From positions 3,822-67,821 of the forward strand of contig CAWDOT010000003.1 of the NCBI GenBank assembly GCA_963803995.1: a DNA stretch of 64,000 nt. The letters run 5' to 3'. Under the pieces are notes generated by a model. That model saw nothing but the letters and a program-made list of their open reading frames with translations, ran no database searches and was not told the origin of the DNA. How positions within the stretch are numbered: the stretch's first letter is position 1; every line of letters begins with the position of its first letter. A program made the translations under genes and the position numbers. Origin of the DNA: an uncultured Acidobacteriota bacterium (GTDB lineage: Bacteria > Acidobacteriota > Thermoanaerobaculia > Multivoradales > JAGPDF01). This document shows positions 19,174 through 48,914 of this stretch, in pieces.

Positions 19174-20803
19174 TCAGTTCCAGCGGGACGTGTCGCCGAC
19201 CTCGAAGTCGTCGGAGAACAGGTGGCCCGGGGGCAGCGCGTAGATCACCATCACCGCGCCGGCGTTCGCGCCCGAGATCTCGCTGCCGATGTCCTCCTGC
19301 GGTACGCCGATCGCGAGATCGTCCCGCCCGTCGCCGTTGAAGTCGCCCGTGGCGAGGGACTTTCCGAGGACGTCCCCATCTTCCGCGACGCCCGGAACAC
19401 CCGCCGCGAACTGGCTCCAGTTCTGCCCGCTGGGGGCCGTCATGGAGGTCCCGCCGCTCAGGATCTGGACCAGGCCGTCGGCGTCGTCGGTCGCCCAGTC
19501 CTCGCCGGGGACTCCGATGGCCAGGTCCTCGCCTTCGGCCCCGTCGAAGTACCCGCTGGCCAGAGCTTCTCCGAAGTAGTCGTACGCCTCTGGAGCGGAG
19601 GAGACGCCGTCCGAGTCCTGATCCCAGAGCGAACAGGAAGTGCAGCTGACGGTCAGGGAGCAGCGGCAGACGAGCACCCAGCCCGCGTCCTGCGCGCCGG
19701 GAGGGTCCGCCCGGCGGCTGCCGATCGCCAGATCGGGCACCGAGGGGGGCGGCGCCACCACGAACCTGCCGGTCGCGAGCGATTCGCCGAAGTACGCGCC
19801 CGGGCTCGAGCCGCGGTCGAGGTAGTCCTCGGTGTTGTCGAGGCCGCCGGCCGAGCCGCGCAGGATGTGCACCGAGCCGCAGAGGGTGAGCGGATCCGTG
19901 ATCGGGTAGCACGCGGAGTCCGGAGCGCCGACCACGAGCTCGTCGTAGCCGTCCAGGTTGAAGTCCGCGGTCGCGAGCGCCCGCCCGAAGTAGGAGATGC
20001 GGTCGCTGGCCCAGCTGAACGCCAGATCCGCCGGCTCCCAGTAGTCATTCGAGAAGGTGGGCGCGACGAGGCCGGAGTCGCTGCCGTAATAGAGGAGGAC
20101 GGCTCCGGTCGCATGACTGCCGGAACCGGTCTTGTCGGAAGCACCGGGGGCGCCGACCGCGAGATCGTCCCGACCGTCGCCGTCGAAGTCGCCCGCGGCC
20201 AGCGCGAGCCCAATATTGAAGATAGCCCGTCCATTCGGCGGAGAAGAAGAAGGTCGAGAAGCTCTGGTTGCCCGACGAGCCGAGACCGGAGGCCGACCCG
20301 TAGAGGATCTGGATCTCTCCGGTCCTCTCCTCCGCGCCGTCGTCGTGGTAAGGCGCACCGATCGCGAGATCGTCGTAGCCGTCCCCGTCGAAGTCCCCGG
20401 TCGCCAGAGTCGTCGCCCACTCGTCGCCGTCCTCGGGAGAGCCCTGGAGCAGGAGATTGGCCTGGCTCCAGACCTGGGCTCGGCCGCTGGCGAGACCGTC
20501 CCGGGTCCCGTAGAGGACGGTCAGGGACCCGGCGTCGGTGCGGAAGCCGTCGGGCGGAATCGCGAAGTCCTCCCCCGGAACTCCGATCGCGAGATCCGCG
20601 AAGCCGTCGCCGTCGAAGTCGCCGGCGGCCAGGCCCGACCCGAACTTGTCGTTCTGCTCGGATTCTCCGGGCACGCCCTCGGCGCCCTGTTGCCAGAGCT
20701 GCGAATGGACGGCCGAGAGCTGCGCCGCGAGGACGCCGGGCAGGAGCGCGAAGCCGACGATGCAAAGCAGCAGCGCGGCGCGGAGAGAGCACTTCGCAGG
20801 CAT
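19174..20803 (-). CDS. Secreted FG-GAP/integrin-alpha beta-propeller protein with FxDDFExGD..W tail (frameshift near 20230)
   Basis: Signal peptide; repeated GDFDGDGxDDLAIGxP units over two frames; ends HLFSDDFEVGDTSRWN. Confidence 0.85.
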
Positions 20804-21137
20804 GGTTCGAACCTCCTCGTGTCATGGATCCACATACGGTTACGCCGAGGAATCGAGAGAGACAGGACGGCCGGCGGCGTTCGTCGCGCCCGCGGTCGGG
20901 CGCTCCGGCGTGCGCGTCGACTCCAGCTTGGAGGCCCAAGGGAAGATCGTGGCTTCGAGGCGAGGCGGGATCGGGACCGTCGATTCGAGGCCTCGGCGAG
21001 AAACGCGAGAGGCTTCGGGACTGCTGGAGGTCCAGGGGCCGCGAGCATGCCTCGACCCTCCTCGCCGGGGAGCGACTGCTCCTCTCGTACGCCTCCTCGG
21101 AGAGCCTGTCAACCTCCCGCGAGGCGGGCGGGGGCCG

Positions 21138-21761
21138 TTACCTCCCGGCGCTGGCCAGCGGCACCCGCACGCTCACCGCGCCGCGCAGGTCGCCGGCGGC
21201 GTAGCCGGTGGCGGGGTCGTCCGGGAAGCGGCGGGCGAGGATCTCGGCGACGCCGGGGGCGAGGTCGGCGGCCTGACCGTGGCAGGCGAGGCAGTGGGGC
21301 GCCACCACCACCGGTCGCAGGTAGCGCAGCTCCGCGGCGCCGCCGCCCGCCGGGGTCACGACTTCGGCGACCTCGGGAGGCAGCCCTTTCGCCTTCATCT
21401 CCGCCGCCAGCCGCTCGAGCGCGGCGCGCTCGTAGTCGTCGGGGGCGTCGGCGGGATTGCGGTAGCGCAGCGAGACGCGGCGCACGGAGAGGCCCGACTT
21501 CGCCGCCTCCTCGCGGGTCGCGCCCTGCGCCTTCTCGGCGCAGGCTTCGACCGCCGCCGCGGGGCCGCCGCGGGACATCTCCTGCTCGAGCAGCCCGCGC
21601 ACTCTCGCCATCACCGCGTCCGCCGCCTGCCGCGCCTGCGCGAGCTGCGCTTCGGGCAGGGCGCCGGGCAACGGAGCGGGAGTCTGCGGAAAGAGAATGG
21701 CGGCCCCGCCGGCGAGCGCGGCCGTGAGTCCCAACGACAGCACCCAGTCGCGACGGATCAT
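21138..21761 (-). CDS. DUF3365/Tll0287-like c-type cytochrome
   Basis: Signal or TM helix, RNPADAPDDYE, RYLRP, CLACHG, DPATGYAAGDLRGAVSV. Confidence 0.85.
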   Translation of the reverse strand: MIRRDWVLSLGLTAALAGGAAILFPQTPAPLPGALPEAQLAQARQAADAVMARVRGLLEQEMSRGGPAAAVEACAEKAQGATREEAAKSGLSVRRVSLRYRNPADAPDDYERAALERLAAEMKAKGLPPEVAEVVTPAGGGAAELRYLRPVVVAPHCLACHGQAADLAPGVAEILARRFPDDPATGYAAGDLRGAVSVRVPLASAGR

Positions 21762-21783
21762 CGCTGCCTCCTCGGCGGGACGT

Positions 21784-22071
21784 TCAGGGCTCGTCGTAGT
21801 CGATCCTGCAGCCGCAGCCGTCCCACATGCGGTCGTAGGTTCCCAGCCGGCGGTCGACGAACGCGTCGGCCGCCGCACGGTCGTCGAATCGGCGGAGCAG
21901 AAGGCGGCCGTCCGGCGCCTGCTCCTGCACCCAGTGCTCGCCGTCGAAGACGAGCAGGCGGATCGGACCGGCGAGCGTGGTGTCCTCTTCGCGGAGCACA
22001 CCCGCGCGCAGCAGGATCGCTTCCCAGGTGGGGACGTCGATCTCGCGCGGGGATACGGCAGTCGCGGTCAC
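21784..22071 (-). CDS. Hypothetical protein (~95 aa) with C-terminal WDGCGC
   Basis: Protein-like C-terminal part of ORF 21784..22203; GTG start (22071 or 22077) near GAGGG; lies between two co-oriented genes. Confidence 0.65.
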   Translation of the reverse strand: MTATAVSPREIDVPTWEAILLRAGVLREEDTTLAGPIRLLVFDGEHWVQEQAPDGRLLLRRFDDRAAADAFVDRRLGTYDRMWDGCGCRIDYDEP

Positions 22072-22108
22072 GCTCACCCTCTTCGAGTCCCGGAGATCCC
22101 GGGCGCGC

Positions 22109-22654
22109 TCAACCCTCGGCGGGGGCGTGCTTGCAGCAGCCGCAGCCCTTGCCCTGGCCGCCCTGCGCCTGCGCGCCGTGGCGGTGGCCCTTGCCCTGGC
22201 CACCCTTCATCGCGCAGCCGGCGCCGCCAGTCATCGCCCAGCGCGGCGCGCCCTCGGCGTCGCGCAGCTCGTAGGTCGCCTCGCCCTTCTTCACGGTGCG
22301 GGCGAGGAAGTCGGCGGGCGCGTCGTTCTTCGGCTTCGAGCCGGTCACCGCGATCTCGTCGCCGGTCGAGAAGCCGGCGCCGATCTCCGCGAGGTAGGCG
22401 CCCGGCCCGAGGCCGACCTCGACGTCGCCGGTGGCGGTGGTCAGGCGGACGTGGATGCCGGCCCTCGGGCAGGACTGCGGCAGGACCTCGGCGACCTTGC
22501 CGGTGAGCGTCGTCTCGGCGGCGAGGTCGTAGACCGGCGGGCCGCCGCCCTGGTGGTCGTGCCCGGTTTTCGCGGCCGGAGCGTCCTGGGCGAGAAGCGG
22601 TGCGGCGACGATGGCGAGCGCGGCGAGCGCGAGCGACGGAATGCGGAGCTTCAT
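22109..22654 (-). CDS. Exported OB-fold-like protein (MamS/MamX-like by recall) with His/Cys-rich ends
   Basis: Signal peptide; YD...TLTGKV, LGPGAYL, GDEIAVTGS, LRDAEGAPRW; ends CGCCKH; GAGGAG RBS. Confidence 0.7.
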   Translation of the reverse strand: MKLRIPSLALAALAIVAAPLLAQDAPAAKTGHDHQGGGPPVYDLAAETTLTGKVAEVLPQSCPRAGIHVRLTTATGDVEVGLGPGAYLAEIGAGFSTGDEIAVTGSKPKNDAPADFLARTVKKGEATYELRDAEGAPRWAMTGGAGCAMKGGQGKGHRHGAQAQGGQGKGCGCCKHAPAEG

Positions 22655-22675
22655 CGGGGTATCTCCTCGGTACTG

Positions 22676-22704
22676 AAGAGGCGCGCGGCGGCCGCGCGGT
22701 TCCC
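22676..22704 (-). promoter_or_regulatory. Candidate ECF promoter (GGGAACC-N16-CCTCT)
   Basis: Minus strand GGGAACC GCGCGGCCGCCGCGCG CCTCTT, just upstream of the RBS of 22654; matches the trxA element. Confidence 0.6.
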
Positions 22705-22783
22705 GGCGCGCCGCACGCTTCCTGTTCGCCCGTCAGTTTCGCTCGCTCCACCGCTCCGCCGCCCACCCCTCGGGGCGGTCCGC

Positions 22784-23215
22784 TCAGGCCGCGAGGGGAT
22801 CGAGCAGCCGCAGGCCCTCGAAGCGGCGGAAATCGAGGTCGTGGGTGGCGAGCGTCGCTCCGTGCTCGAGCGCCAGTGCGGCCAACAACGCGTCCGGAAC
22901 CAGCGGGCCGCGGGCGTTCGAATCCTCCAGCAGGGGGCGCGCGATGTCCCAGTAGCGAGGGCCCGGCTCGAGCAGGACCACCATGGGACGCGCGAGCCAG
23001 GCGTCGACGGCGCGGGTCGCCTCGCCGAGAGTGAGCGGCGCGGGGAAGACCGCGCGGTTCGTCGTCAGGCGCAGGAAGGCTCCGATCGTCGCCCAGCAGA
23101 GAGCGAATGGCTGCGGCGAGCTCAGGCTCTTCTCGAGCCAGGTCCGCGCCCGGTCGTGCTCCGGCGCGCTCGAGTTGTACGCGTAGAGCAGCAGGTTGGC
23201 GTCGCAGAGGATCAT
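22784..23215 (-). CDS. vapC: VapC PIN-domain toxin
   Basis: MILCDANLLLYA, FLRLTTN, VPDALLAALALEHG, THDLDFRRF. Confidence 0.9.
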   Translation of the reverse strand: MILCDANLLLYAYNSSAPEHDRARTWLEKSLSSPQPFALCWATIGAFLRLTTNRAVFPAPLTLGEATRAVDAWLARPMVVLLEPGPRYWDIARPLLEDSNARGPLVPDALLAALALEHGATLATHDLDFRRFEGLRLLDPLAA

Positions 23216-23457
23216 CGGTGTCCGGGGCCCTCGGCCACCTCGAGCAGCTCCGCGACGTTGCTGTAGTCGAGGCCGGGCGCGACGCCCAGAGGACGCGCCT
23301 CGACGGTGAACGGCGGCGCGCCGGCGACCGCCCGCCGCCGCGCGAGCCCCTCGCGCAACGCCTCGTTGAGCGTCGCCTTGAAGCTCTTGCCGGTGCGCTG
23401 CATCTCGCGCCGGAGCCGCTCCGCGACCTCCGGGTCCAGAGTCACGGTCGTGCGCAT
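23212..23457 (-). CDS. vapB: VapB-type (RHH) antitoxin
   Basis: MRTTVTLD...SFKATLNEALREGL; stop overlaps the vapC start. Confidence 0.85.
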   Translation of the reverse strand: MRTTVTLDPEVAERLRREMQRTGKSFKATLNEALREGLARRRAVAGAPPFTVEARPLGVAPGLDYSNVAELLEVAEGPGHR

Positions 23458-23493
23458 CGTCATGATGCTAGGAACAACGCATCATGATGTCAA
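23457..23493 (-). promoter_or_regulatory. Sigma70 promoter with two overlapping palindromic operators for vapBC-1
   Basis: TTGACA (23488-23493), 17-nt spacer, TAGCAT (23465-23470), ATG 7 nt later; GCATCATGATGC-like boxes at 23457-23468 (10/12) and 23479-23490 (11/12). Confidence 0.75.
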
Positions 23494-23521
23494 TCGGCAC
23501 GCCGCCGGCTCCGCGGGGCTC

Positions 23522-24091
23522 TCACCCGGCCGCGTCGTAAGCGACGCGCACCCAGGCGACGAGCTCGGCGTCGACCTCGGCGGGAGTCGAGATCCGGACC
23601 TTGTACTGGCACATGCCGCCGGGCGGCAGCGCGACCAGGCGTTCGCCGGCGGCGAGGCCTTTCGCGTTGATTCCGATCTCGACCTGGGTCTTCGTCGCGG
23701 GACCCACCATCGCGAACTGCTTCTTGCGGCGCAGGCTGAGGTAGCCCTTCTTGGGCGCGATCTCGAAGGGCCCGAGCTTCGCGATCGCCGCCATCACCGC
23801 GTCGTGCGCCGGGCGCAGCGCCGCCTTCGGCCCGGCGTAGATCTCGTCGACGGCGGCGTCCGGGCTCGCCGCCGGCGCGGCCGACGCTCCGGTCGAGCGC
23901 AGATAGAGCGTGACCAGCGTGTTGGCGTCGCCGTGGCCGAGCCCGAGCCCGCTCTTGGCCGCGTCGCGCAGCTCGCCGTGCTTCGCGAGCCCGCGCGACG
24001 CGAGCCAGGCGTGGAGCTCTTCGAGCGACTTGCCGGTCTTCTTCTGGATGTTCGCGAGCTGGGTCTGGATCGCCTGGTCGACGTCGGTCAT
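23522..24091 (-). CDS. DUF4287 + DUF5655 domain protein
   Basis: NIQKKTGKSLEE, KHGE, GLGHGDAN; APKKGYLSLRRKKQFA, EVDAELVAWVRVAYDAA. Confidence 0.8.
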   Translation of the reverse strand: MTDVDQAIQTQLANIQKKTGKSLEELHAWLASRGLAKHGELRDAAKSGLGLGHGDANTLVTLYLRSTGASAAPAASPDAAVDEIYAGPKAALRPAHDAVMAAIAKLGPFEIAPKKGYLSLRRKKQFAMVGPATKTQVEIGINAKGLAAGERLVALPPGGMCQYKVRISTPAEVDAELVAWVRVAYDAAG

Positions 24092-24132
24092 CGGTGCCGC
24101 TCCTCTCGCGGGCGTCGGTGGTGCCCGCGATC

Positions 24133-27100: not shown

Positions 27101-27255
27101 GTCGAGAACGTCCAGGCCCCGAACAGCGCCCAGGCCGTCGCCAGCGAGAAGATCAGTCCGCGCCGCGCGAGGACCCCCTCGAACCAGCGCCGCGCCCGCA
27201 GGTGAGTCGCCGAGTCGTGCCGATCGGGTGGCTGCGGCGCGCCGTCAGTGGTCAT
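24133..27255 (-). CDS. Heavy-metal RND efflux permease (CzcA/CusA family)
   Basis: 1040 aa; DLFPDL, MTLGGLAIAVGLLVDAGVIMVEN, FLPALDEG, RVRPKLMT, RPLAVVLVGGL. Confidence 0.93.
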   Translation of the reverse strand: MTTDGAPQPPDRHDSATHLRARRWFEGVLARRGLIFSLATAWALFGAWTFSTLPRDLFPDLALPTVQLLIQSPGRSAAELELAVAQPVEQALAGLPGVHRTTSTTQSGVVQVIVAFESEVDPWRSRQLVAERLAQVAGAFPEGTAAPLLTSVAGRLQEIQELVLDGPAVDPMRLRDHAVRVLVPRLQSVPGVARVEMLGGEGRQIQISVSPEKMRTAGVSLGQVVEALEGSAQDVSAGVLEVRDKQWNVTVASLARRPEAIAALPVHTAHGLVALGDVAEVREVPEFRTGLARFQGFEAVSLRVIRQPAAETLATARRVRAALPELRRTLPEGMSLTLFYDQGSLVEHALGGVGNALMIGALFVALVLVLLLGSVRGAAIVIALLPLATLGAAIPLAGLDLGLNAMTLGGLAIAVGLLVDAGVIMVENLAHRLHEHRAAAGAGGEPRRAEASRARVIARGAAEVAAPIATAVLVILAVFVPLLALGGVAGKLYAPLAVAVAAAMALSLVFSFTLVPALVDRFLPPGARLDEPRLVGAIKRLYRPALDFALRRGALVQVLALGLSAAALWLGTRLDSDFLPALDEGALMVQTVLPSDSSLAAIDAANRQFEEALGGVAGIASVYRRTGRGEVTEDPMPTYLSDVLVVLEDGAAAAAVEDEVAAIAERMPFAVEITTPMNMRISEGIGGTPADIQVELFAADLAAVTARQAEIQRLLAGVPGVASVAVDTGAPLSSWRIVPDEAALRRLDVPRRALLETASAALQGIPLAPTFDGPQKIERVVRFPADGRLTAESLKRLPIVVEEGRIVELGQVASIVEAPTPSMLKRKNGQRRLGFNVRTAGDLGGTARRIEAALAGFELPAGVSVGLAGKVEEARETERRLGVASAVALALVVALLYLALGRWREVAVVLGTLPIALAGGLVALWLARESWNASSIVGVIGLFGVAVQNSLVLITQTRELVARGAPFISALREAAIGRVRPKLMTAGAAILGLLPMLLGFGGSELERPLAVVLVGGLVTSTLFTLLVLPAVYARFGAPRQ

Positions 27256-30039: not shown

Positions 30040-30045
30040 TCGCAC

Positions 30046-32308: not shown

Positions 32309-33348
32309 TCAGGGACCTGCAGCCGACCAGTGCCGGATGTCGCCGCTCTCGAAATCCTCGAGGTGGATCAGCGCGGCGAGATCGTCGGGGACCCGAACCT
32401 CCAGGCCGTCGGCGAGAACCGTGTCGCGATCGAGCTGGTGGGCCGGGAAGACGCCGGTCTCGTAGACCGAGCCCTCGGCGAGGCCGTCGCGACCGCGGCC
32501 GCGCACTGCGACGACCTCGAAGTGGAGGACATCCTCGACGTCCAGGAAGTAGTCGTAGGGATGCCCCAGGGATCGAGCTCCGGCACGTAGGGGACGTAGT
32601 AGAAAGTGCAGCTCTCGATCAGGAGCGATCGCAGATCCGCCGCGCTGATCGGCGGGAAGAGCCCGAGATCGACCGCCTCGCCGAGCAAGGCTCCGGTCCG
32701 GCTGACTTGATCGATGACCCAGCTCAGCATCCCCGCGCTCATCATGGCGATCTCCCGCTGCGCGCGGTCCAGACGCGAGCGTGGATCGAGCAGCGCCGGC
32801 CCCGGCCGCCGCAGCCAGGACAGGTCGAGCACCACGAGGTCTTCCTTCAACGTCGTCGTGTCCGCTCGTTCGTAGAGGGTGCCCTCGAATGTTGCGTCCG
32901 CTCCGGCGCTCCGGACCACGGCGACATGTGGCGCGAGCGGATTGGTGACGGCGAGACGGAACTCATACGGGTTCCCCCAGCCGTCGAGCTCGGGCGGCGT
33001 GTCGAGATAGACCGGAACCAGCAGTGCCTCGAGCACCGGGTACTTGATCGCCGGGACCGTGGTGACGTCGAACGGGTCGTCGCAGCCGGTTCCCGCGCGC
33101 GACAGCGGTCGGCTCACCTGGTCCGATAGCCAGGCGCCGATGCCGTCGCGGATCGTCCTCAGGCCTGCCTGCGTGATCCGGAGCGGCTCCATTTCGGCCG
33201 GTGCGATGGCGGCCGGCGGGATGGCGGCGGGCGGGATGGGGTTGGCCGGGCGGGGCGCCGCGACCGCGAGCGCGAGGATCGCCGCGACCATCGGAGAGAA
33301 ACTCCGCGGGCGAAGGAGAGACAGGCGAGCGCTGGGAGGGGGCGACAT
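32309..33348 (-). CDS. Secreted protein with two tandem GspG-like pseudopilin head domains and EDFESGD..W tail (frameshift near 32565)
   Basis: Repeats WLSDQVS/WVIDQVS, PELDGWGNPYEF/PELDPWG(H)PYDY, RSAGADATFEG/RGRGRDGLAEG. One extra G in a G-run joins ORF 32368..33522 to the frame of 32309..32506. Start uncertain. Confidence 0.65.
33205..33239. repeat. 15-bp tandem repeat (~2.3 copies) encoding IPPAA
   Basis: GATGGCGGCCGGCGG GATGGCGGCGGGCGG GATGG. Confidence 0.6.
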
Positions 33349-33429
33349 CGAGGCACCACGAGAGCCTCGAAGCAGATTACACCCGAAGCCCGTCAGAGCC
33401 AGCCCCTGCGCAGCCGCAGCGCGTTGCGA

Positions 33430-33610
33430 TCGACCTTCGGCCGGGAGCCGCGCAACGACGTAGGCCCTCGGGTCGGGCCGCACCCCGGCGATCACCTCGT
33501 CGAGTCCGAGATCTCTCGCCACCGCCGCCGCGATGCGCTAAGGGTCGCCGGTCAGAATGACGACCCGAATCCCCTCGACGTGGAGGGCGTGGATCGCCGC
33601 CGGCGGCGTC
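33430..33610 (-). pseudogene. Degenerate fragment of a P1B-type ATPase (copA-like P-domain)
   Basis: Reads AIHALHVEGIRVVILTGD* then ARDLGLDEVIAGVRPD...VVARLPAEGR; aligns by eye with 34685-34870. Confidence 0.75.
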
Positions 33611-39247: not shown

Positions 39248-42200
39248 TCACGCGGACGCCGGGGCCTCCGATCCAGAGACTTTGTCCAAACCCCGCTTCT
39301 CCGTGCGCAGCTTCCAGAGCTTGTAGGCGACCGGGTAGATCAGCAGCTCGGCGAGGAACGAGGTCACGAGGCCGCCGATCATCGGCGCCGCGATCCGCTT
39401 CATGACGTCGGCGCCGGCCGAGGTCGCGAACAGGATCGGCAGCAGGCCCATGAACGCGGCGGCGACCGTCATCATCTTCGGCCGCGCCCGCTTGACCGCG
39501 CCGTGCACGATCGCTTCGTCGATCGCGGCGAGCGTGCCGAGCCGGCCCTCCCGCTTCGCCTCCGCCCAGGAGAGGTCGAGGAAGAGCAGCATGAAGACCG
39601 CCGTCTCGGCGTCGAGGCCGAGCAGCGCGATCATGCCGACCCAGGCGGCGATCGAGACGTTGTAGCCGAGCAGGTGGAAGAGCCAGATCGCGCCGATCGC
39701 CGAGAAGGGCACCGAGACCAGGATCAGGAAGGTCTTGAAGCCCGACCGGGTGTTCGCGTAGAGCAGCACGCAGATCAGCGCCAGCGTCACCGGCACGACC
39801 AGCTTCAGCCGCTCGCGGACCCGCAGCATGTTCTCGTACTGGCCGCTCCAGGCGAGCGTCGTGCCCGCCGGCAGCTTCAGCCGCTCGCCGACCGCCCGCT
39901 TGGCCTCCTCGACGTAGGTGCCGACGTCCCGCCCGGCGACGTCGACGAAGACGTAGCCGGCGAGGAAGCCGTTCTCGTTGCGCACCATCGCCGGCCCGCG
40001 CACCAGCCGGATGTCGGCGAGCTGGGCGAGCGGCACCTGCTGGCCCGCCGGCGCGCGCACCAGGACGCGGCCGAGCTGGTCGAGGTCCTCGCGCAGCTCG
40101 CGCGGGTAGCGGACGTTGACCGGGTAGCGCTCGCGCCCCTCGACCGTCGTGGTGACGTTCTCGCCGCCGATCGCCGCGCCGACGACCATCTGCACGTCGG
40201 CGATGGTCAGGCCGTAACGCGCCAGCCGCTCGCGGTTGCGGCGCGATGTCCACGAAATAGCCGCCGGCCACCCGCTCGGCGTAGACGCTGCGCGTGCCCG
40301 GAACGCCGCGCAGGATCCCTTCGATCTCCTCGCCCAGCCGCTCGATCTCGCCGAGGTCGCGGCCGAAGACCTTGACCCCGACCGGAGTGCGCACACCGGT
40401 CGACAGCATGTCGATGCGCGCCTTGATCGGCATCGTCCAGGCGTTGGTGACGCCCGGGATGCGCAGCGCGCGGTCGAGCTCGGCGATCAGCTCCTCCCAG
40501 GAGATGCGATCGGGCCAGAACGGGCGCAGCAGCGGCTTGGTGAACTCCGGCCAGCCGTCGTGCCAGGTCGGCTTCGCCCGCCACTCCCGCTCCGGTTTGA
40601 GCACCACCGTCGTCTCGATCATCGAGAACGGCGCCGGGTCGGTCGAGGTCTCGGCGCGCCCGGCCTTGCCGTGCACCGACTCGACCTCCGGGAAACCCGC
40701 GAGCACCCGGTCCTGCCGCTCGAGCAGCTCCTGCGCGGCGCCGACCGAGAGGCCGGGCAGCGTGGTCGGCATGTAGAGGATCGAGCCCTCGTTGAGCGGC
40801 GGCATGAACTCGCTGCCCAGCCGGAAGTACATCGGCAACGAGAGCGCGAGGACGAGCGCCGCGACGCCGAGCACCGTCTTCGGCCACGCCAGCGACCCAG
40901 CGGCAGACCGGCTCGTAGACGCGGTGGATGGCGCGCGAGATCGGGTGCGCCTCCTCGGCGTGGTAGGTGCCGACCAGGGCGCCGGTCGCGAGCCTCGCCA
41001 GCCAGCGCGGCCGGAACTCGAACGGGTCGATGCGCGCGAAGAGCATGCGCATCGCCGGGTCGAGGGTGACCGCGAGGAGCGCCGCGAGCGCCATCGCGAG
41101 GTTCTTCGACCAGGCGAGCGGCTTGAACAGGCGCCCCTCCTGGTCGACCAGCGCGAAGATCGGCAGGAAGGCGACCGCGATCACCAGCAGCGAGAAGAAG
41201 ACCGACGGGCCGACCTCCTTCAGGGCTTCGAGCCGGACGTGGAAGAACTCCCGCCGGCGCTCCTCGCGCGCCGCGGCCGAGAGCTCGCCGCGCCCGCGCC
41301 ACCTGCCCTGCCAGAGGTGGATCCGGTTGTAGGCGTTCTCGACCTCGACGATGGCGCCGTCGACCAGCACGCCGATCGAGATCGCGATGCCGGCGAGCGA
41401 CATGATGTTGACGGTGACGCCGAAGTAGTAGAGCGGGACGAAGGCGAGCAGCACCGAGATCGGGATGGTCAGGATCGGCACGATCGCCGAGGGCAGGTGC
41501 CAGAGGAAGAGCAGGATGACCAGCGAGACGACGATCATCTCGATCGTCAGCTCGTGCTTGAGCGTGCCGATGGCGCGGTCGATCAGCACCGAGCGGTCGT
41601 AGGTGGTGACCACCTCGACCCCCTCGGGCAGCGACGCCTCGAGCTCGTCCAGGCGCGCCCGGACCCGCGCGATCACGTTCTTCGCGTTCTCGCCGTGGCG
41701 CATGACCACGATGCCGCCGACGTGGTCGCCCTCGCCGTTGAAGTCGGCGACGCCGCGCCGGATCTCGGGGCCGAGAGCGACCCGCGCCACGTCGCGCACC
41801 AGGACCGGCACGCCGCCCGGGCCGACCTTGACCACGATCGCTCCGAACTCCTCGACCGAGCGGGCGTAGCCGCGCACCCGCACCATCGACTCGGCGCCGC
41901 TCCACTCGATCAGGCGGCCGCCGGTCTCGTCGTTCGAGCGGCGCACGGCGTCGGCGAGCTCGGCGATCGACAGGCCGTAGGCGGCAAGCCGGTTGGGGTC
42001 GACGGTGATCTGGATACTGCTTGCCGTAGCCGCCGAGCGACGCCACCTCGGCGACGCCCGGAACCGCCTGGAGCGAGTAGCGCAGCGTCCAGTCCTGGAA
42101 AGACCGCAGCTCGTCGAGCGAGTGCCGCCGCTCCGGTCGCGCAGGACGTACTGGAAGACCCAGCCGACGCCGGTGGCGTCGGGTCCGAGCTCGGTGCGCA

Positions 42201-42570
42201 CGCCGGCCGGCAACTGGGGCTGGATCTTCGACAGGTACTCGAGCACCCGCGAGCGCGCCCAGTAGAGATCGGTGCCGTCCTCGAAGATGACGTAGACGTA
42301 GGAGAAGCCGAAGTCCGAGAAGCCGCGCACCGCCTTGACCTTCGGCGCGCCGAGCATCGACGAGACGATCGGGTAGGTGACCTGGTCCTCGAGGATGTCG
42401 GGCGAGCGGTCCCAGCGCGAGTAGACGATGACCTGCGTGTCGGAGAGGTCGGGCAGCGCGTCGAGGCGGATGACTCCGAGGATGTGCACGGAGAAGGCGA
42501 TCGCCGCCGCGGTCGCCAGCAGGACCAGCGCGCGGTTCTTCGCCGAGAGCTCGATCAGCCGGGAGATCAT
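39248..42570 (-). CDS. cusA: CusA/SilA Cu/Ag RND permease (several frameshifts)
   Basis: [67 protein letters not shown]. Confidence 0.92.
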
Positions 42571-43965
42571 CGGGGGCCCTCGGTCGGCGCCGGTTGCGGC
42601 GCCCCGGCGCCCAGCTCGCGCGCCGAGGCCGGAGATCGCGGCGCGCAGCCGCGACTCGGAGTCGAGCAGGAAGTTGGCCTTGACCGCCACCCGGTCGCCC
42701 GGGGCGAGCCCGGCAGAGACCACCGCCTGCCCTTCGCGGCGCAGCGCGACGGCGAGCTCGCGCGGTTCGAAGCGGCCGGGAGCGGTCTCGACGAAGGCGA
42801 TCTGGCGCTCGCCGGTGTCGAGCACGGCGGTGTCGGGGACCAGGATGCCGGTGACTTCGCCGAGGTCGAGCACCACGTCGGCGTACATGCCGGGGCGCCA
42901 GGAAAGGTCCCGGTTGGCCACGTCGAAACGGACGCGCAGCGTGCGGGTCGCCGGGTCGAGATCGGGGAAGATGTAGGCGACCTTCCCCTCGCGCACCGAG
43001 TCCGGCTCGTAGCTGAGCGAGAGCCGGGCGGTCTGGCCCGGGCGCACCTTGGCGGCGTCGGCCTCGTAGACGTTGGCTTCGACCCAGACCGAGGAGAGAT
43101 CGGAGAGCGTGACGATCTCCTGGCCGGGCGTCACCATCTGGCCCTGGAGCACGCCCTTGCTGACGACATAGCCGGAGATCGGCGCCGCCAGGGCCACTCT
43201 GCGCCGCGGCCTGCCCTCGCGCTCGAGGTCGGCCAGGAACTCCTCGGGCAGGCCGAAAACCTCGAGCCGGCGGCGCGCGGCGTCGACCAGGTCCTGGCCG
43301 CCACGGCGGACCTCCGGAATCGACGAGGAGATGAACTGCTGCCCCTTCTCGCGGGCGAGCAGGAACTCCTGCTGCGCGGCGACCAGCTCGGGCGAGTAGA
43401 TCTCGGCGACCGTCTCGCCCGCGCGCAGGTAGCGCCCGACGAAATCGGCCGAGAGCGCCTCGATCCAGCCCGAGAAGCGGGCCTCGAGCCGGCGCGCGCG
43501 CCGCTCGTCGGCAACCACCGAGCCGACCGTGCGCACGACGCGCGCCAGCGAGCCGGCGCGCGCCGCGGCGACCACCACGCCCGAGATCCGCCGCCCTTCC
43601 GGGTCGAGATCGACCGCCGCGAAGCCGCCGGGCGCCGCGTCCGCCGCCGCGTCCGCTCCCTCGCTCTTGCCGACGAGATCCATGCCGCAGATCGGGCACT
43701 GCCCCGGCTCGTGGCGGACCACTTCGGGGTGCATCGGGCAGACCCAGAGCGTCGGCTTCTCCGCCGCCTCGCGTCGGACCAGGTCCATGTGGCAGATCGG
43801 GCAGGAGCCGGGGCGGTCGGCGACGTAGTCGGGGTGCATCGGGCAGTACCAGACCTCGCCCCCGGCGTGGCTCTCGCCCCGGCAGCCGGTGAGACCGAGG
43901 AGGCCGACGAGGGCGGCGGCGGCGAGGGTGAGCGCGACGATGGCGCGGTGCGAACGGAAACTCAT
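42567..43965 (-). CDS. cusB: CusB-like adaptor with two CPMHP..CPICxM domains (3' end probably frameshifted)
   Basis: Lipobox [44 protein letters not shown]. Confidence 0.88.
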
Positions 43966-45239
43966 CGGGAACCTCCCTCGGGGGCAGCCGGCAGCGGCGA
44001 GGCGAGCAGCGCCTCGATCTCCGCCCAGGCGGCGTAGAGATCCGCCTCGGCGCGGGCGAGATCGACGCGGTCGTGGTACCAGTCCTCGAAACGCATGAGG
44101 ACCTCCGAGAGCGGGCCGCGGCCGGCGAGCAGCTCGGCGCGCGCGGCGTCGAGCGCCGCCGAACCCTGCGGAAGCACGGCCTCCCGGTAGCGGCGGCGGA
44201 CGGTCTCCAGCCGGCGTCCCTCGGCGAGCCAGCGGACGAGCTCGGCGCGGGCGCCGAGCTCGGCTTCGTGGCGGCGCGCGAGGTCGGCCTCGACCTCGAA
44301 GCGGGCCGCCTCGACGCGGGGCCGCTCCCGGCGGGCGCGGAAGAAGGGCAGCTCGATGCCGACGCGGGCGACGAGGTTGGGGTCGCTGCCATCCATCAGC
44401 AGCAGGCCGCCGCCGACCGAGAAGCCGGGCGAGAGGCCGGCCTCGAGCGCGGCGACCCGGCTCTCGGCGACCAGGACGCGCCGGTGCGCGATCACCGCCT
44501 CGAGGGTGTAGGGCGCCGCGGTCGCCGGGTCGACCTTCGGCAGCACGACGTCGGGCAGCGCCGCGACGCGCGGGAGCGCGCCGCTCGCGCCGCCGCCGGC
44601 GAGAGCGGCGAGCCGCGCCGCCGCGGCGGCGAGCCTCGAGTCGGCCGCCTCGACGTCGAGATCGTGGCGCGAGAGCTCGAGCTGCGCCATCAGCGGCGCT
44701 CCGAGCCCGGTCTGTCCGGCGGCGTAGAGCGTCGAGGCCGAGGCCACCAGCAGGTCGAGCAGCTCGTGCGCCTCGGAGAGCGCTTCGAGCTCGCGCGAGA
44801 GCGCGTAGATCGCCGCCCAGGCGAGGCGCACGTCGCGCAGCAGGCGCTGCTCGACGCCGCCCGCCTCCGCCTCGGCGAGCGCGATCTCGGCGGCGGCCAG
44901 CTCGCGGGCGGCGCGGCGCTGGCCGCGCCCGGGCAGCGGCTGCTCGAGCACGATCGTCGCCTCGGCCGGGTCGTGCTCGCCGGCCGGCAGGAAGTTGCGG
45001 GCGTCGACCTCGAGCCTCGGGTCGTCGAAGATCCCCGCGCCTCCGGCGGCGGCCCGGCGCGCCGCCAGGTCGGCGCGCGCCGCGGCGAGCGACGGCGCGT
45101 TGGCGAGCGCCTGGCGCTCGACCTCCTCGAGCGACTTCGGCTCGAAGAGCGCCTGGTGGGTCATCTGCCCGCCGGCGGCGCCGGCGAGGGCGGCGGCGAC
45201 GGCGGCGACGGCGGCACTGCGACGGCGGACGGCGGACAT
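43962..45239 (-). CDS. TolC/CusC-like outer-membrane efflux protein
   Basis: Signal peptide, [24 protein letters not shown]; first gene of the cusCBA-like operon. Confidence 0.82.
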
Positions 45240-45324
45240 GCGCAACGCTCCTCTCGGGACGCCAGAGACCGTTTCCGGGCGAGGCACGGCCCCGTCCGGA
45301 CACACTTCTCCCCTGAGGGGCGCT

Positions 45325-45708
45325 TCAGTTGCGGAAGACGGACAGGAGCGTGAAGAGACCGAGCGAGTGGATCGCCTCGGCGGCGCGCTCGCGCGCCGCG
45401 ACGGCGACCGCCGGCAGCGGCGCGTCGAGGCGCGCGGCGAGGTCGGCCGCGAGCGGCAGCAGAGCGACCGGCGCCGGCTGGAGCTGACCGTCGGCCGCGG
45501 AGGCCGGCACGGGCGCGCTCTTCGTCCGGCAGCAGTCCATCGGCGCGGCCATCGCGCCCGCGCGATGGCAGAGCGGGCCCGCCGCGCTCTTCATCAGCGG
45601 GCAGCCGCCGCCCGCCGCGGCCTTGCAGCGCGCAGCCGGCAACGGCGCCGCGAGCGCGACCGCGAGGAGCAGGGCGACGAGCGCCGCGAAGGAGCGAGAG
45701 CTCCGCAT
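45325..45708 (-). CDS. Small Cys/Met-rich leader protein upstream of the cus operon
   Basis: Signal-like N-terminus, C..CPLM..CH..MDCC, ends LFTLLSVFRN; TAGAAT -10 at 45717-45722. Confidence 0.65.
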   Translation of the reverse strand: MRSSRSFAALVALLLAVALAAPLPAARCKAAAGGGCPLMKSAAGPLCHRAGAMAAPMDCCRTKSAPVPASAADGQLQPAPVALLPLAADLAARLDAPLPAVAVAARERAAEAIHSLGLFTLLSVFRN

Positions 45709-45840
45709 GGACGCGCATTCTAAGCCCCCTGTCAAGCCCGCCCGCCGCGCGAACGCCCCGCGCCCCGCACGCGGCAGGGCGGTGGAGCCCCCGTCTGTTA
45801 AGGTCCCCGGCCAGCCCGAATTCCGAGGAGTGCGCCCGCC

Positions 45841-47145
45841 ATGCCCCCCGTCCCCGAGCCCGACGCGCCGCGCGTCTCCGTGCTGGTCGCGACCTGGAAC
45901 TGGAGCTCGGCGCTCCGCCTCGCGCTCGCGTCGGCGCTCGCGCAGACCGTCGCCGACATCGAGGTCCTGGTGATCGGCGACGCCTGCACCGACGACAGCG
46001 CCGAGGTCGTCGCCGGCTTCGGCGACCCCCGCCTCGCCTGGCACAACCGGTCCGAGAACTCGGGCAACCAGGCCGCGCCCCACGACGACGGACTCGCCCG
46101 CGCGCGCGCGCCCTGGGTCGCGTATCTCGGCCACGACGACCTCTGGCACCCTCGCCACCTGGAGGATCTGCTCGCGACCGCCGCCGCGCGCAACGCCGAC
46201 CTGGTCCACGCGATCGCCCTCAACTACGGCTCGCAGGAGAGCGGCGTGCTGGTGGCGAGCGGCATCGAGCCGAGCGGCGGCCACCGGACTCCGCCCAACC
46301 TGCGCCCCAGCGCGGTCGCGCACCGGCGCGACCTGGCGCGGGCCGTCGGCGGATGGGGCGACCCGCGGGCGACCGATCGCCCGGTGGACGACGCCTTTTT
46401 CGACCGTCTCTGGGAGAGCGGCGCCCGCTGCGTCGGCACCAACCGGGTGACCGCGTTCAAGTTCCCGGCCGGCTGGCGGCGCGACGCCTACCGCCTGCGC
46501 GACGTCAGCCAGCAGGCGGCGCTCTGGGAGCGCCTGCGGGTCGAGCCCGACCTGGTCGAACGCGAGCTCACCCGGCTGCTGGTCGCCCAGGCCGACGGCA
46601 CCGGCGGCGTGGCGCTCGAGCCCGACCCGCCCCAGCCCCCGGGGTGGCGCGAGGCCCGCCGCCGCTTCAAGGGGCTCGAGCCCGGGGGAGCCGAGACGCC
46701 CGCCGGCGACCGCCTCGACCTCGGCGCGCCGTTGCCCGGGCTCGAGTGGCATCCGGCCGAGAGCGACGGCCACGGCGCCTTCCGGTGGAGCGCGGCGCGC
46801 GAGTCGGCGCTCGAGGTGCCCTGGTCGACCCTGCCCGGCGAGCCGGCGATGCTGCGCGTCGGCCTCGCCTACCTGCTCGAGGGCACCGATCTCGGCGCGC
46901 TCGGGTTCACCGTCGACGGCTTTCCGGTCGCGCTCGAGCGCGCCGGCGACGCGGCCGGCGGACCGGTGCTCGAGGCCGAGCTGCCGGCCGTGGGCGACCA
47001 TCGGCGCCGCTTCGCGCGCGTGGTCGTGCGCTCGCCGGCGCTGCGCCGCCCCTGCGATCTCGATCCCGCCAACCCGGACCGGCGCCGGCTGGGGGTTGCG
47101 CTACGCTGGGTCGAGATCGTGGCGGGCGAGGGGTCTGCCGAATGA
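45841..47145 (+). CDS. GT2 family glycosyltransferase with C-terminal beta domain
   Basis: VSVLVATWN, SALAQT, GDACTD, AYLGHDDLW. Confidence 0.85.
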   Translation: MPPVPEPDAPRVSVLVATWNWSSALRLALASALAQTVADIEVLVIGDACTDDSAEVVAGFGDPRLAWHNRSENSGNQAAPHDDGLARARAPWVAYLGHDDLWHPRHLEDLLATAAARNADLVHAIALNYGSQESGVLVASGIEPSGGHRTPPNLRPSAVAHRRDLARAVGGWGDPRATDRPVDDAFFDRLWESGARCVGTNRVTAFKFPAGWRRDAYRLRDVSQQAALWERLRVEPDLVERELTRLLVAQADGTGGVALEPDPPQPPGWREARRRFKGLEPGGAETPAGDRLDLGAPLPGLEWHPAESDGHGAFRWSAARESALEVPWSTLPGEPAMLRVGLAYLLEGTDLGALGFTVDGFPVALERAGDAAGGPVLEAELPAVGDHRRRFARVVVRSPALRRPCDLDPANPDRRRLGVALRWVEIVAGEGSAE

Positions 47146-47167
47146 CTGGCGGCGCGAGGGGGACGAG

Positions 47168-47891
47168 ATGAGCGCGGGCGAAGCGAAGGTCGCACTGGTG
47201 ACGGGAGGCAGCCGCGGCATCGGCCGCGCGGTCGGCGAGGCGCTGCTCGAGCGCGGCTTCCGGCTCTTCTTCTGCGGGCGCAGCCCCGACCTCGTCGAGT
47301 CGACGAAGCGCGAGCTCTACGTGCGCTACCCGGGGCGGGTCGACGCCCGCCTCTGCGACGTGCGCCGCCAGGACGAGGTCGACGCGCTGGTCGCCTGGGT
47401 GCTCGACGCGGCGGGCCGGCTCGACGTGCTGGTCAACAACGCCGGCCTCGGCCGTTTCGCGCCGGTCGACGAGATCTCGGGCGACGACTTCCGCGAGACG
47501 ATCGAGACCAACCTGATGGGCTCGTTCTACGCGATCCGCGCCGCCGCGCCGGCAATGAAGACGCAGGGCGAGGGGTGGATCTTCAACATCGCCTCGCTCG
47601 CCGCCAAGAACGCCGTTCGCCGGCGGCGCCGCCTACAACGCCTCGAAGTTCGGTCTGGTCGGCATGTCCGAGGCCGCGATGCTCGACCTGCGCCACTTCG
47701 GCATCCGCATGGCGGCGATCTGCCCCGGCTCGGTCGAGACCGACTTCGGCAGCGGCGTGATGAAGGACGGCGGCTCCTGGCGCCTGCAGCCGGAAGACGT
47801 CGCCAGAGTCGTCACCGACCTGCTCGACTTCCCCGCCCGCGCCCTCCCCAGCCTGATCGAGATCCGCCCCAGCCGGCCGCCGAAGAAGTAG
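47168..47891 (+). CDS. Short-chain dehydrogenase/reductase (frameshift near 47615)
   Basis: TGGSRGIG, VNNAG, NIASL, YNASK in the shifted frame, ICPGSVETDF. Confidence 0.9.
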
Positions 47892-47894
47892 GCG

Positions 47895-48914
47895 TCAGGA
47901 GCCGAGCGCCGACCAGGACGCCGTCCCGTCGCACTCGAAGCCGTCGGCGAAGATGAACGAGGTGTCGCCCGAGCCCGAGAGCCAGATCCGGTCGCAGGTG
48001 CGGAAGGTGCCGGACGTCGTCGTCACCTCCGCGACGACCGCCTTGAGTCCGTCGCCGGCCGTGAGGTTCCAATTCGGGACGTTGGCCAGGAAGGGCTCGA
48101 AGGCGGAGAAAGCACCCGTTTCGCTGGCGAATCGCATCTGCGCGCCAGAGCCGGGTGGCTGGTACAGGTACAGGTCGACGATCGCGGTCGACGTCGCGAA
48201 CTGCTCGCGCTCGATGATCACCGGATAGCCCGTGGCCCCACCGCGCGCCCCGAAGACCTGGGTCCAGTAGTGCTGCAACCCACAGAACGCACAGGCATTC
48301 GGGCACTGCTCGACGCCCGTCGGCGGCTCATCGGCGCACTGGCAGTTCGTGTTCGAGTCCAGTTGCACATTCGCCTGATCGCCGACCTGCTGGACGTAGC
48401 CCACGCCGATCTCGCGGTAGCTCGACGACAGGATGTTGCCGCGATGGCCCGAGCTGCCCATCCAGGTGGACATGACCGTCGCCGGGCTCGACTGCCCGCC
48501 GGCGATGTTCTCGCCCCCCGCCGTCCAGCCCGTGTAGCCGGCGTTGGTCATCCGCGTGCCCACGCCGATGCAGCTCGCTACGAAGTCGAGGTGGGAGAAG
48601 TAGTTGTTCACCGCCATGGAAGAACTGTGCTCCTCGGCGGCCTGAATCAGGTTCGTCTGGTGCTTGAGCGGCGGTTTGGGGCAGCCCTCGCCGGCCGGAC
48701 AGTTCAGTCGCTCGACGTTGACCTGCTCGACCACCTGCTCCTCGAAGGTCGCGGCGGGCGCGAACGGCTGCAGCAGGAAGTCATCGGCCGGCGTCGTCCG
48801 TTCCCGGTCGGGCACGACGACCAGCGGCGCTGGCATGACGGCCTGCTGAGCGGCGAGCCCGGAGGCTGCCGCCAGTCCGACCAGTAGGACTCCCCACGAA
48901 CGAATCCGACCCAT
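47895..48914 (-). CDS. Secreted CAP/SCP-domain protein with IFADGFE tail
   Basis: Signal peptide; HSSSMA..YFSH, GENIAGG, WMGSSGHRGNIL, YWTQVFG; ends FIFADGFECDGTASWS. Confidence 0.88.
   Translation of the reverse strand: MGRIRSWGVLLVGLAAASGLAAQQAVMPAPLVVVPDRERTTPADDFLLQPFAPAATFEEQVVEQVNVERLNCPAGEGCPKPPLKHQTNLIQAAEEHSSSMAVNNYFSHLDFVASCIGVGTRMTNAGYTGWTAGGENIAGGQSSPATVMSTWMGSSGHRGNILSSSYREIGVGYVQQVGDQANVQLDSNTNCQCADEPPTGVEQCPNACAFCGLQHYWTQVFGARGGATGYPVIIEREQFATSTAIVDLYLYQPPGSGAQMRFASETGAFSAFEPFLANVPNWNLTAGDGLKAVVAEVTTTSGTFRTCDRIWLSGSGDTSFIFADGFECDGTASWSALGS

What the first reader, a model, noticed from the sequence alone, without database searches (positions are those of the whole stretch)
19174..47957. 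Shared C-terminal FE-x6-W tail on three unrelated secreted proteins: candidate sorting or anchoring signal
Seen: the FG-GAP protein ends LFSDDFEVGDTSRWN (19174-19224), the tandem GspG-like protein ends IHLEDFESGDIRHWSAAGP (32309-32371), and the CAP protein ends IFADGFECDGTASWSALGS (47895-47957). All three have N-terminal signal-like segments, unrelated passenger domains and the same spacing [D/E]-[D/G]-F-E-x6-W close to the stop. They also show more A/T-ending codons than their neighbours by eye. Established: short conserved tails on diverse secreted proteins (T9SS CTD, PEP-CTERM, GlyGly-CTERM) act as export or anchoring signals. This tail has no TM helix or basic end, so it fits none of those. 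I recall IFADGFE-type tails in Acidobacteria and Xanthomonadales proteins but know of no assigned machinery. Inference: it marks cargo of an uncharacterised secretion or surface-attachment system.
Basis: partly seen in the sequence, partly recalled or inferred. Interest (0 to 1): 0.82.

Follow-up and report, generated by a model that had tools for sequence, protein, structure and literature searches.

The report
Short hairpin tag on exported proteins
About eighty exported proteins of this uncultured acidobacterium carry the same 20-residue peptide, copied from the first two strands of a lectin-like domain; it looks like an undescribed plug-in address tag whose receptor is still unknown.

Summary
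The three tails are real, on the minus strand. Two of the three genes can be read through only across a frameshift. In the window's genome (3.75 Mb) a profile of the tail finds 81 copies. 71 of them end within 10 residues of a stop codon, against 7.8 expected by chance.

The carriers are unrelated exported proteins: peptidases, a GH44, FG-GAP and other propellers, beta-helices. No Pfam or NCBIfam model hits the tail, and it has no membrane helix or basic end.

The tail matches the first about 20 residues (strands 1-2) of MAM/LamG/CBM22-type jelly-roll domains and stops at the same conserved proline. It is modular. It also occurs straight after signal peptides, between domains, inside a loop, and as tandem doublets.

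Mass use is confined to one order of Thermoanaerobaculia: 34 of 41 relatives have it, and 29 of those have 17 or more copies. Lineages without it place a complete, unclassified 125-residue jelly-roll domain at the same position, and the two never occur together.

No receptor or machinery was found. My best reading is a docking or retention tag (about 0.5); a secretion signal is the main rival.

This scan noted the same tail before on other DNA, with the same jelly-roll reading. My literature searches found no description of it.

The parts
19174..20803 (-). FG-GAP repeat exported protein carrying the tail; read across one frameshift near 20200-20360; signal peptide begins at the Met at 20803
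   Evidence: ORF and tail. Pfam FG-GAP 3.5e-33. Upstream frame with signal peptide and further FG-GAP repeats.
19177..19224 (-). Tail copy 1 (HLFSDDFEVGDTSRWN, then stop at 19174-19176)
   Evidence: local tail HMM 29.7 bits.
32309..33522 (-). Exported protein with two similar internal repeats and no Pfam or NCBIfam family, carrying the tail; frames change at about 32560-32574
   Evidence: no family hits.
32312..32371 (-). Tail copy 2 (LIHLEDFESGDIRHWSAAGP, then stop)
   Evidence: tail HMM 29.0 bits.
47895..48914 (-). CAP/YkwD-family exported protein carrying the tail after a Gly/Ser linker; likely start is the Met before the signal peptide
   Evidence: Pfam CAP 7.9e-12. TIGR02909 1.7e-22 (below its cut-off).
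47898..47957 (-). Tail copy 3 (FIFADGFECDGTASWSALGS, then stop)
   Evidence: tail HMM 22.1 bits.

Best explanation
The tail is an autonomous module of about 20 residues: [LIV]-F-x-D-[DG]-F-E-x-G-x4-W-[ST]-x3-P. It derives from the first two beta-strands of a MAM/LamG/CBM22-type jelly-roll domain. One order of Thermoanaerobaculia attaches it to dozens to more than a hundred Sec-exported proteins per genome.

Most likely it is a docking or retention tag. It is flexible on its own, and outside the cytoplasm it binds a shared receptor and so holds exoenzymes and adhesin-like proteins at the cell envelope or in the matrix. The binding may work by folding into a hairpin that adds to, or completes, a beta-sheet of the partner.

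Shown: the enrichment of the tag, its modularity, its sequence origin, its taxonomic range, and its mutual exclusion with a complete C-terminal jelly-roll domain.
Inferred: the hairpin shape, the binding, and the location of the partner.
The receptor is not identified.
For: 1. Scale and position. 81 copies in the genome, 71 within 10 residues of a stop against 7.8 expected. The length is fixed: W is followed by exactly 5 residues in 32 of 69 tails, and the last residue is Pro in 40 of 69.

2. Diverse exported cargo.
- In the first Pfam scan, 35 of 72 carriers had a hit at E <= 1e-5: FG-GAP, M4, M12B, M14, M28, M43, GH44, lactonase propellers, beta-helix, Calx-beta, CAP.
- The other 9 carriers were scanned.
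- A crude signal-peptide test was positive for 41 of 58 carriers against 895 of 2449 background ORFs.

3. Origin.
- Both CBM22 modules of PDB 4xup begin with the motif (E 0.095, weak).
- A degenerate DNA pattern for the motif gave 90 matches in the 80 of 117 loci I examined. 62 lie within 12 residues of a stop, nearly all in Thermoanaerobaculia, Holophagae or Acidobacteriota records. Most of the other 28 open complete jelly-roll domains of 150-250 residues in other phyla and in archaea.
- In 17 orthologues of one carrier, the preceding InhA-like MAM domain starts with the parallel pattern h-h-x-D-D-x-E-x-G-x-x-G-W-T-x-x-S-P, including Pro at W+5. In the AlphaFold model that segment is strand 1.

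4. Modularity.
- In this genome, 5 copies sit directly after signal peptides and 3-4 lie between domains, flanked by Pro-rich linkers.
- Among the top 150 of 4976 hits (E <= 0.001) in a library of 1.84 billion proteins, 25 carry tandem tags separated by 22 residues or fewer, one of them with three tags. In P0021 and P0028 one tag is inserted about 52 residues before the end of a CBM-like domain. My local tail HMM finds a single tag in 12 of the 150, and in all 12 it ends at the protein's last residue.

5. Not part of the carrier's fold.

6. A complete binding-type domain stands in its place.
- The GH44 orthologue in tail-free G017 and the MAM-protein orthologue in tail-free G031 carry a 125-residue domain exactly where the tail sits.
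- A profile of that domain hits G016, G017, G018 and G031, which is 4 of 7 tail-free relatives, and 0 of 34 tail-positive ones.
- It also hits 4 of 9 tail-free genomes of sister orders. One of these, G062, is flagged unpublished.
- Its model (pLDDT 88) is a jelly roll, closest to the tip domain of a Bdellovibrio adhesive fibre, PDB 8ond/8ok3.
Against: No receptor was found.
- The 'rest of the domain' of 20 complete jelly-roll domains finds nothing in this genome.
- The genome has only 4 InhA-like MAM domains, 1 LamG_3, 0 CBM_4_9 and 0 DUF1080 domains. Those I inspected have their own first strand or are circularly permuted.
- The alternative-domain profile finds no strand-less relative in tail-positive genomes.
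- The genome is only 65% complete and is frameshift-ridden, so absence is weak evidence.

Other weaknesses:
- AlphaFold gives the tail no structure, so the hairpin is inferred from homology and from the loop-inserted and tandem copies.
- 88% of copies are C-terminal. A pure docking module need not show that bias; a C-terminal signal would.
- Mutual exclusion with the 125-residue domain rests on few independent lineages: three genera of one family, one further family, and three sister-order families. Kin are not independent.
Confidence: 0.5

Rival explanations
1. The tail is an outer-membrane translocation or sorting signal. It would be read in the periplasm by a secretion machine (a type II-like or unknown system) and possibly cut off, in the way type IX secretion handles its C-terminal domains.
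For: - 71 of 81 copies are at the extreme C-terminus, with a fixed length and a terminal Pro.
- All carriers checked look Sec-exported.
- The cargo classes (proteases, glycosidase, propeller adhesins) are typical of two-step secretion.
- The lineage-wide presence or absence is what a signal tied to a dedicated machine would show.
Against: - N-terminal, inter-domain, loop-inserted and tandem double or triple copies are hard to reconcile with a terminal signal.
- No machinery was found in the window.
- Secretin homologues are present in 41 of 41 relatives regardless of tails.
- The module that replaces the tail in tail-free lineages is a folded jelly roll resembling an adhesin tip, not a known secretion domain.
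Confidence: 0.25
2. The tail works without a protein partner. It would be a mini-module that binds calcium, or a surface or matrix polysaccharide, or that simply caps and protects the chain end.
For: - The invariant acidic and aromatic residues (D, E, F, F, W) and the terminal Pro.
- The tandem repeats seen in other genomes resemble repeat-type wall- or glycan-binding modules.
- No protein receptor was found.
Against: - Most carriers have a single 20-residue copy, which is small for a stand-alone glycan site.
- In complete jelly rolls the three aromatic residues are core-facing (inference), so they would need something to pack against.
- A mere protective cap would not explain the copies placed just after the signal peptide or inserted in a loop.
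Confidence: 0.15
3. The tails bind each other and cross-link exoproteins into an extracellular network.
For: Only the general tendency of amphipathic hairpins to pair, and the existence of tandem copies.
Against: No direct evidence. Most carriers have a single tag, and nothing in the sequence suggests a defined oligomer.
Confidence: 0.05
4. The tails are non-functional remnants of truncated jelly-roll domains, or assembly artefacts.
For: The genome has many frameshifts, and the motif equals a domain start.
Against: - The stop falls at the same place relative to W in 32 of 69 tails.
- The tail is conserved in orthologues from six genera.
- 29 of 41 related genomes have 17 to about 150 copies, including genomes of 1-3 contigs that are 97-99% complete.
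- 4976 cluster representatives match in a public library.
Confidence: 0.02

Closest known systems
First two strands of InhA-like MAM (PF20773), CBM22 and LamG-type jelly-roll domains
   Same: - Same residue pattern, including Pro five residues after W.
- The motif opens both CBM22 modules of PDB 4xup.
- It opens complete domains in many phyla.
   Different: Here only about 20 residues are present and then the protein ends. No remainder of the domain follows or was found elsewhere in the genome.
Tripartite small C-terminal sorting signals (LPXTG/sortase, PEP-CTERM/exosortase, GlyGly-CTERM, MYXO-CTERM)
   Same: A short conserved signature at the C-terminus of many unrelated exported proteins, with lineage-wide presence or absence.
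   Different: - These signals are defined as motif + transmembrane helix + Arg-rich cluster (passages of bioRxiv 10.1101/2023.06.07.544157). The tail has neither the helix nor the basic cluster.
- The tail also occurs N-terminally, internally and in tandem.
Type IX secretion C-terminal domain (TIGR04183 / PF18962)
   Same: A C-terminal tag without a membrane helix on Sec-exported hydrolases and adhesins of a diderm.
   Different: - The type IX domain is a folded sandwich of about 70-100 residues (from my knowledge).
- No model hit was found.
- The tail is only 20 residues long and is unstructured in the model.
Dockerin-cohesin docking of exoenzymes (cellulosome)
   Same: Dozens of unrelated secreted enzymes per genome carry one small, mostly C-terminal, sometimes duplicated or N-terminal module. 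That is the pattern seen here.
   Different: - No dockerin model hit.
- The tail is a third of a dockerin's size.
- No cohesin-like scaffold was identified.
Donor-strand complementation (chaperone-usher pili)
   Same: A short terminal strand that is incomplete on its own and could complete a partner's beta-sandwich.
   Different: No strand-deficient acceptor was found, and the carriers are enzymes and adhesins, not pilins.
Short 'DGFE-stop' tail of Lysobacterales
   Same: The same [LI]-F-x-D-G-F-E core on unrelated exported proteins.
   Different: That form ends at the Glu. This genome has none of that form and always adds the x-G-x4-W-S-x3-P half.

Membership tests
Tripartite C-terminal sorting signals (LPXTG, PEP-CTERM, GlyGly-CTERM, MYXO-CTERM and the like) | Short signature motif near the C-terminus of many exported proteins | tested here: met
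   71 of 81 copies lie within 10 residues of the stop.
Tripartite C-terminal sorting signals | Hydrophobic transmembrane segment after the motif | tested here: not met
   Only 0-13 residues follow W, most often 5.
Tripartite C-terminal sorting signals | Arg-rich cluster at the end | tested here: not met
   The last residue is Pro in 40 of 69 tails and there is no basic cluster.
Tripartite C-terminal sorting signals | Co-occurring dedicated sorting peptidase | not tested
   No candidate was nominated. Whole-proteome profiling was not possible with these tools.
Type IX secretion C-terminal domain | Match to TIGR04183 / PF18962 | tested here: not met
   No hit at E <= 1 in NCBIfam or Pfam for the three window proteins. 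No such hit among the 81 carriers scanned with Pfam.
Dockerin | Match to the dockerin model; duplicated calcium-binding segment of about 60-70 residues | tested here: not met
   No Pfam dockerin hit. The tail has about 20 residues.
MAM / LamG / CBM22-type jelly-roll domain | Sequence pattern of strands 1-2 | tested here: met
MAM / LamG / CBM22-type jelly-roll domain | Complete sandwich of about 130-190 residues | tested here: not met
   A stop follows after about 20 residues, and the tail is unstructured in the model.
Donor-strand complementation systems | A partner domain that lacks the donated strand | tested here: inconclusive
   None was found in a 65%-complete genome or, for the alternative domain type, in 34 tail-positive relatives.

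The most novel reading that the evidence does not exclude
One order of Acidobacteriota runs a split-domain display system. Up to about 150 different exoenzymes and adhesins per genome each carry only the first hairpin of a lectin-like jelly roll. They plug it into a strand-deficient acceptor on the cell surface or in the matrix. This would be a cellulosome-like docking principle built on strand complementation, and it would have replaced the covalently attached 125-residue jelly-roll domain that sister lineages use at the same position.
Probability: 0.2. Interest if true: 0.9.

Novelty: new variant of a known kind. Interest (0 to 1): 0.7.

Why it matters
- Acidobacteriota are abundant soil and sediment degraders, and how they export and position their exoenzymes is largely unknown.
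- A 20-residue tag found on 81 genes in 3.75 Mb, and on at least 4976 protein clusters in public data, would mark a large and easily predicted exoproteome.
- The tag points to an unknown receptor or machine.
- If it docks by strand insertion, it could serve as a very small natural tag for protein display.
- The mutually exclusive tail and 125-residue domain give a clean comparative handle for finding the partner.

Tried and rejected
- Receptor among recognisable jelly rolls. jackhmmer with the MAM-like domain of L019 found 5 domain hits in 4 ORFs, all complete or circularly permuted. phmmer and jackhmmer with 20 complete domains minus their first 22 residues found nothing. Searches of the own genome with PF20773, PF13385, PF02018 and PF06439 gave 4, 2, 0 and 0 hits. 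A regex for small ORFs ending in a jelly-roll last-strand motif gave nothing usable.
- My first reading of the C1/C19 internal copy as strand 1 of a complete domain was wrong. It is an insert between two domains.
- Secretin (TIGR02517) was found in 41 of 41 relatives, so it does not discriminate.
- A 108-residue four-cysteine C-terminal domain was found in 39 of 41 relatives, including tail-free ones, so it does not correlate with the tail.
- Neighbours of tail genes. Arrays in this genome hold no recurrent unknown gene. In 80 external loci the commonest neighbours are Ser/Thr kinases, in 6-7 loci.
- Orthologues of the CAP, GH44 and M28 carriers in tail-free genomes of the same genus were not found or were not orthologous.
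- Clustering of small secreted ORFs gave no candidate acceptor family.
- The search for related loci with the tail alignment failed because no stretch was conserved enough. With the small double-tag protein P0024 it returned only tag matches, so no genomic context.
- Complex prediction with three copies of the tail region gave no verdict. This is not evidence either way.
- Literature. No paper holds the motif strings in a relevant sense; 4 papers matched, 3 were listed and all were irrelevant. No paper combines Thermoanaerobaculia, C-terminal and secreted. The listing for sorting-signal terms showed only the known tripartite systems.


Full report
OBSERVATION

All three tails exist at the given coordinates, on the minus strand, and all fit [D/E]-[D/G]-F-E-x6-W.
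- The FG-GAP protein ends ...HLFSDDFEVGDTSRWN-stop (19177-19224).
- The second protein ends ...IHLEDFESGDIRHWSAAGP-stop (32312-32371).
- The CAP protein ends ...FIFADGFECDGTASWSALGS-stop (47898-47957).

- The second tail is in a different frame from the body of its gene. The frames change at about 32560-32574.
- The FG-GAP gene starts with a clear signal peptide at the Met at 20803 in yet another frame.

Pfam confirms FG-GAP and CAP and finds nothing for the second protein. No Pfam or NCBIfam model touches the tail. The remark about codon usage does not hold.

SCALE IN THE GENOME

The genome is 3.75 Mb in 27 contigs with 72.6% GC. The genome search lists it as 65% complete.
- A local HMM built from 63 regex-selected tails gives 81 hits of at least 14 bits in six-frame ORFs. 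71 of them end within 10 residues of a stop, against 7.8 expected (binomial 3e-61).
- The consensus is [LIV]-F-x-D-[DG]-F-E-x-G-x4-W-[ST]-x3-P. F, E and W are invariant in 64 aligned tails.
- W is followed by exactly five residues in 32 of 69 tails, and Pro is the last residue in 40 of 69.
- The carriers are unrelated. In the first Pfam scan 35 of 72 had hits: FG-GAP propellers, peptidases M4, M12B, M14, M28 and M43, GH44, lactonase-type propellers, beta-helices, Calx-beta and CAP. The other 9 were scanned.
- The 128 residues upstream of 63 tails form 50 BLAST clusters, the largest with 4 members.
- A crude signal-peptide heuristic is positive for 41 of 58 long carriers against 895 of 2449 background ORFs.
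- The window itself holds no secretion genes. The neighbours are cytochrome bd oxidase, RND/Cus efflux, a P-type ATPase, a glycosyltransferase and housekeeping genes.

WHAT THE TAIL IS

A profile search of the PDB gave one weak hit (E 0.095): the tandem CBM22 modules of a xylanase (4xup), both of which begin with the motif.

A degenerate DNA pattern for the motif was scanned over one genome per species.
- 62 matches lie within 12 residues of a stop, almost all in records labelled Thermoanaerobaculia, Holophagae or Acidobacteriota.
- Most of the other 28 open complete jelly-roll domains of 150-250 residues in Chloroflexia, Actinomycetes, Verrucomicrobiales, Flavobacteriales, Thermotogae and several archaea.

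Inside this genome, three carriers have an InhA-like MAM domain just before the tail. I aligned one of these carriers with 17 further sequences: 15 homologues from related genomes, 14 of them with the tail and one (G031) without, and 2 paralogues from this genome.
- The alignment shows that the domain's own start (h-h-x-D-D-x-E-x-G-x-x-G-W-T-x-x-S-P) parallels the tail residue by residue, including the Pro five residues after W.
- In the AlphaFold model (mean pLDDT 84.5) that segment is strand 1 of a confident sandwich. The tail itself (residues 168-190) has pLDDT 45-51 and no secondary structure.

So the tail equals strands 1-2 of this kind of jelly roll, cut off at the turn. It is not part of the carrier's fold.

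MODULARITY

Ten of the 81 copies in this genome are not C-terminal.
- Five follow a signal peptide directly.
- Three or four sit between domains.
- They are usually followed by Pro-rich linkers.
- One case that I first took for a complete domain is an insert between two domains.

A profile search of 1.84 billion cluster representatives gave 4976 proteins at E <= 0.001. The top 150 are biased towards multi-copy proteins because scores add up. I re-scanned them with my local tail HMM.
- Many are repeats of complete domains, with spacings of about 170-280 residues.
- 25 carry tandem tags separated by 22 residues or fewer, one of them with three tags. They include a family of small secreted proteins (about 120-160 residues) that end in two tags.
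- In two proteins (P0021, P0028) one tag is inserted about 52 residues before the end of a CBM-like domain and a second tag ends the protein.
- 12 of the 150 have a single tag by this HMM, and in all 12 it ends at the protein's last residue.

Insertion into a loop and head-to-tail duplication are what one expects of a self-contained hairpin whose ends lie close together. That is an inference.

DISTRIBUTION

- Among 41 genomes of the same order, 34 have the tail.
- Seven have none: G010, G016, G017, G018, G029, G031 and G032.
- In an even sample of 151 genomes of the phylum, only genomes of this order have many copies. Five others have 1-2 hits, and 9 genomes of sister orders in the class have none.
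- G003, G010 and G013, which are tail-poor or tail-free members of the same genus, also nearly lack another common C-terminal domain (0-1 copies). They therefore seem to have a reduced exoproteome.

A COMPLEMENTARY MODULE

- The GH44 orthologue in tail-free G017 ends, at exactly the point where the tail begins in this genome, with a 125-residue domain.
- The MAM-protein orthologue in tail-free G031 does the same.
- That domain matches nothing in Pfam or NCBIfam.
- Its model (21 sequences, pLDDT 88) is an eight-stranded jelly roll. The best PDB match is the tip domain of the Bdellovibrio Bd2133 fibre (8ond/8ok3; E 1e-4; TM 0.62-0.66), followed by viral coat proteins and CBM22.
- A profile of it hits G016 (3), G017 (30), G018 (4) and G031 (20), and none of the 34 tail-positive relatives.
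- In the phylum sample it hits four tail-free genomes of sister orders (G062, G078, G130, G185) and nothing else. G062 is flagged unpublished; without it the count is three.

The two C-terminal modules were never found together in the genomes searched. The independent lineages are few, and kin are not independent.

MECHANISM

The evidence best fits a modular docking or retention tag (about 0.5):
- a flexible peptide with three invariant aromatic and two or three acidic residues;
- placed at chain ends or in linkers, and sometimes doubled;
- standing where sister lineages put a whole binding-type jelly roll.

Strand insertion into a partner sheet is an attractive way for it to work, but I found no acceptor. 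The main rival is a C-terminal secretion or sorting signal (about 0.25). It explains the 88% C-terminal bias and the fixed length, but not the N-terminal, internal, loop-inserted and tandem copies. A partner-less metal, glycan or capping role (about 0.15) remains open.

COMPARISON AND NOVELTY

The tail fails two of three defining features of the tripartite sorting signals, the membrane helix and the Arg cluster. The definition is taken from passages of bioRxiv 10.1101/2023.06.07.544157. It matches no type IX or dockerin model. My searches of the paper library found no description of it; supplementary files could not be seen.

This scan has noted the same tail several times on other DNA and read it as an orphan first strand of a jelly roll. 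I reached that reading from my own calls before seeing those notes, and I could not reproduce one note's lead to a strand-less lectin-like acceptor family.

New here:
- the genome-wide position statistics;
- the Pro-for-Pro parallel with the MAM domain start;
- the loop-inserted and tandem forms;
- the restriction of mass use to one order;
- the mutual exclusion with an unclassified 125-residue jelly-roll domain.

Noticed in passing
L049:610-996 (G017), L210:1135-1500 (G031); alignment A2: An unclassified C-terminal jelly-roll domain of about 125 residues with two invariant Cys. It begins ...TPCR..DTR and ends ...D-V-x-G-Y-F. It has no Pfam or NCBIfam hit. There are 20-30 copies per genome in tail-free Thermoanaerobaculia. 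Its closest fold is a Bdellovibrio fibre tip domain.
   Followed up: yes
G000 C4:185148-185471 (L223:856-1179) and 17 other places in the genome: A four-cysteine C-terminal domain of about 108 residues on many exported proteins. It occurs in 39 of 41 relatives irrespective of the tail.
   Followed up: partly
G000 C11:45079-45666 (-): An ORF ending in an IPTL-CTERM-like signal (IPTLD, a hydrophobic stretch, then a basic end), lying within an array of tail genes. One tail protein on C8 has IPTLD just before its tail. The name is recalled, not tested.
   Followed up: no
G000 C7:131215-160502 (-): Three giant genes in a row: a 4963-residue tail protein (lactonase propellers, DUF11), a 2950-residue protein with a circularly permuted MAM-like domain and a long helical C-terminal half, and a 1320-residue tail protein.
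   Followed up: partly
P0024, P0046, P0058, P0063, P0094 (library proteins; alignment A5): A family of small secreted proteins (about 120-160 residues) that consist of one small domain plus two tandem tags. They could be adaptors, but no genomic context could be fetched.
   Followed up: partly
Pfam and NCBIfam give no hit.
   Followed up: no
window 18023-19240 (+), 39251-45303 (-): Further apparent frameshifts. The cytochrome bd subunit II ORF matches its Pfam model only to residue 226 of 406. The Cus/RND efflux genes appear as one fused 1698-residue ORF plus a separate 412-residue piece.
   Followed up: no
G000 C8:328349-329011 and 332281-332871 (+): Two ORFs whose C-terminal ends look like helix-turn-helix regulators lie inside and beside a four-gene array of tail proteins. 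This judgement is by eye only.
   Followed up: no
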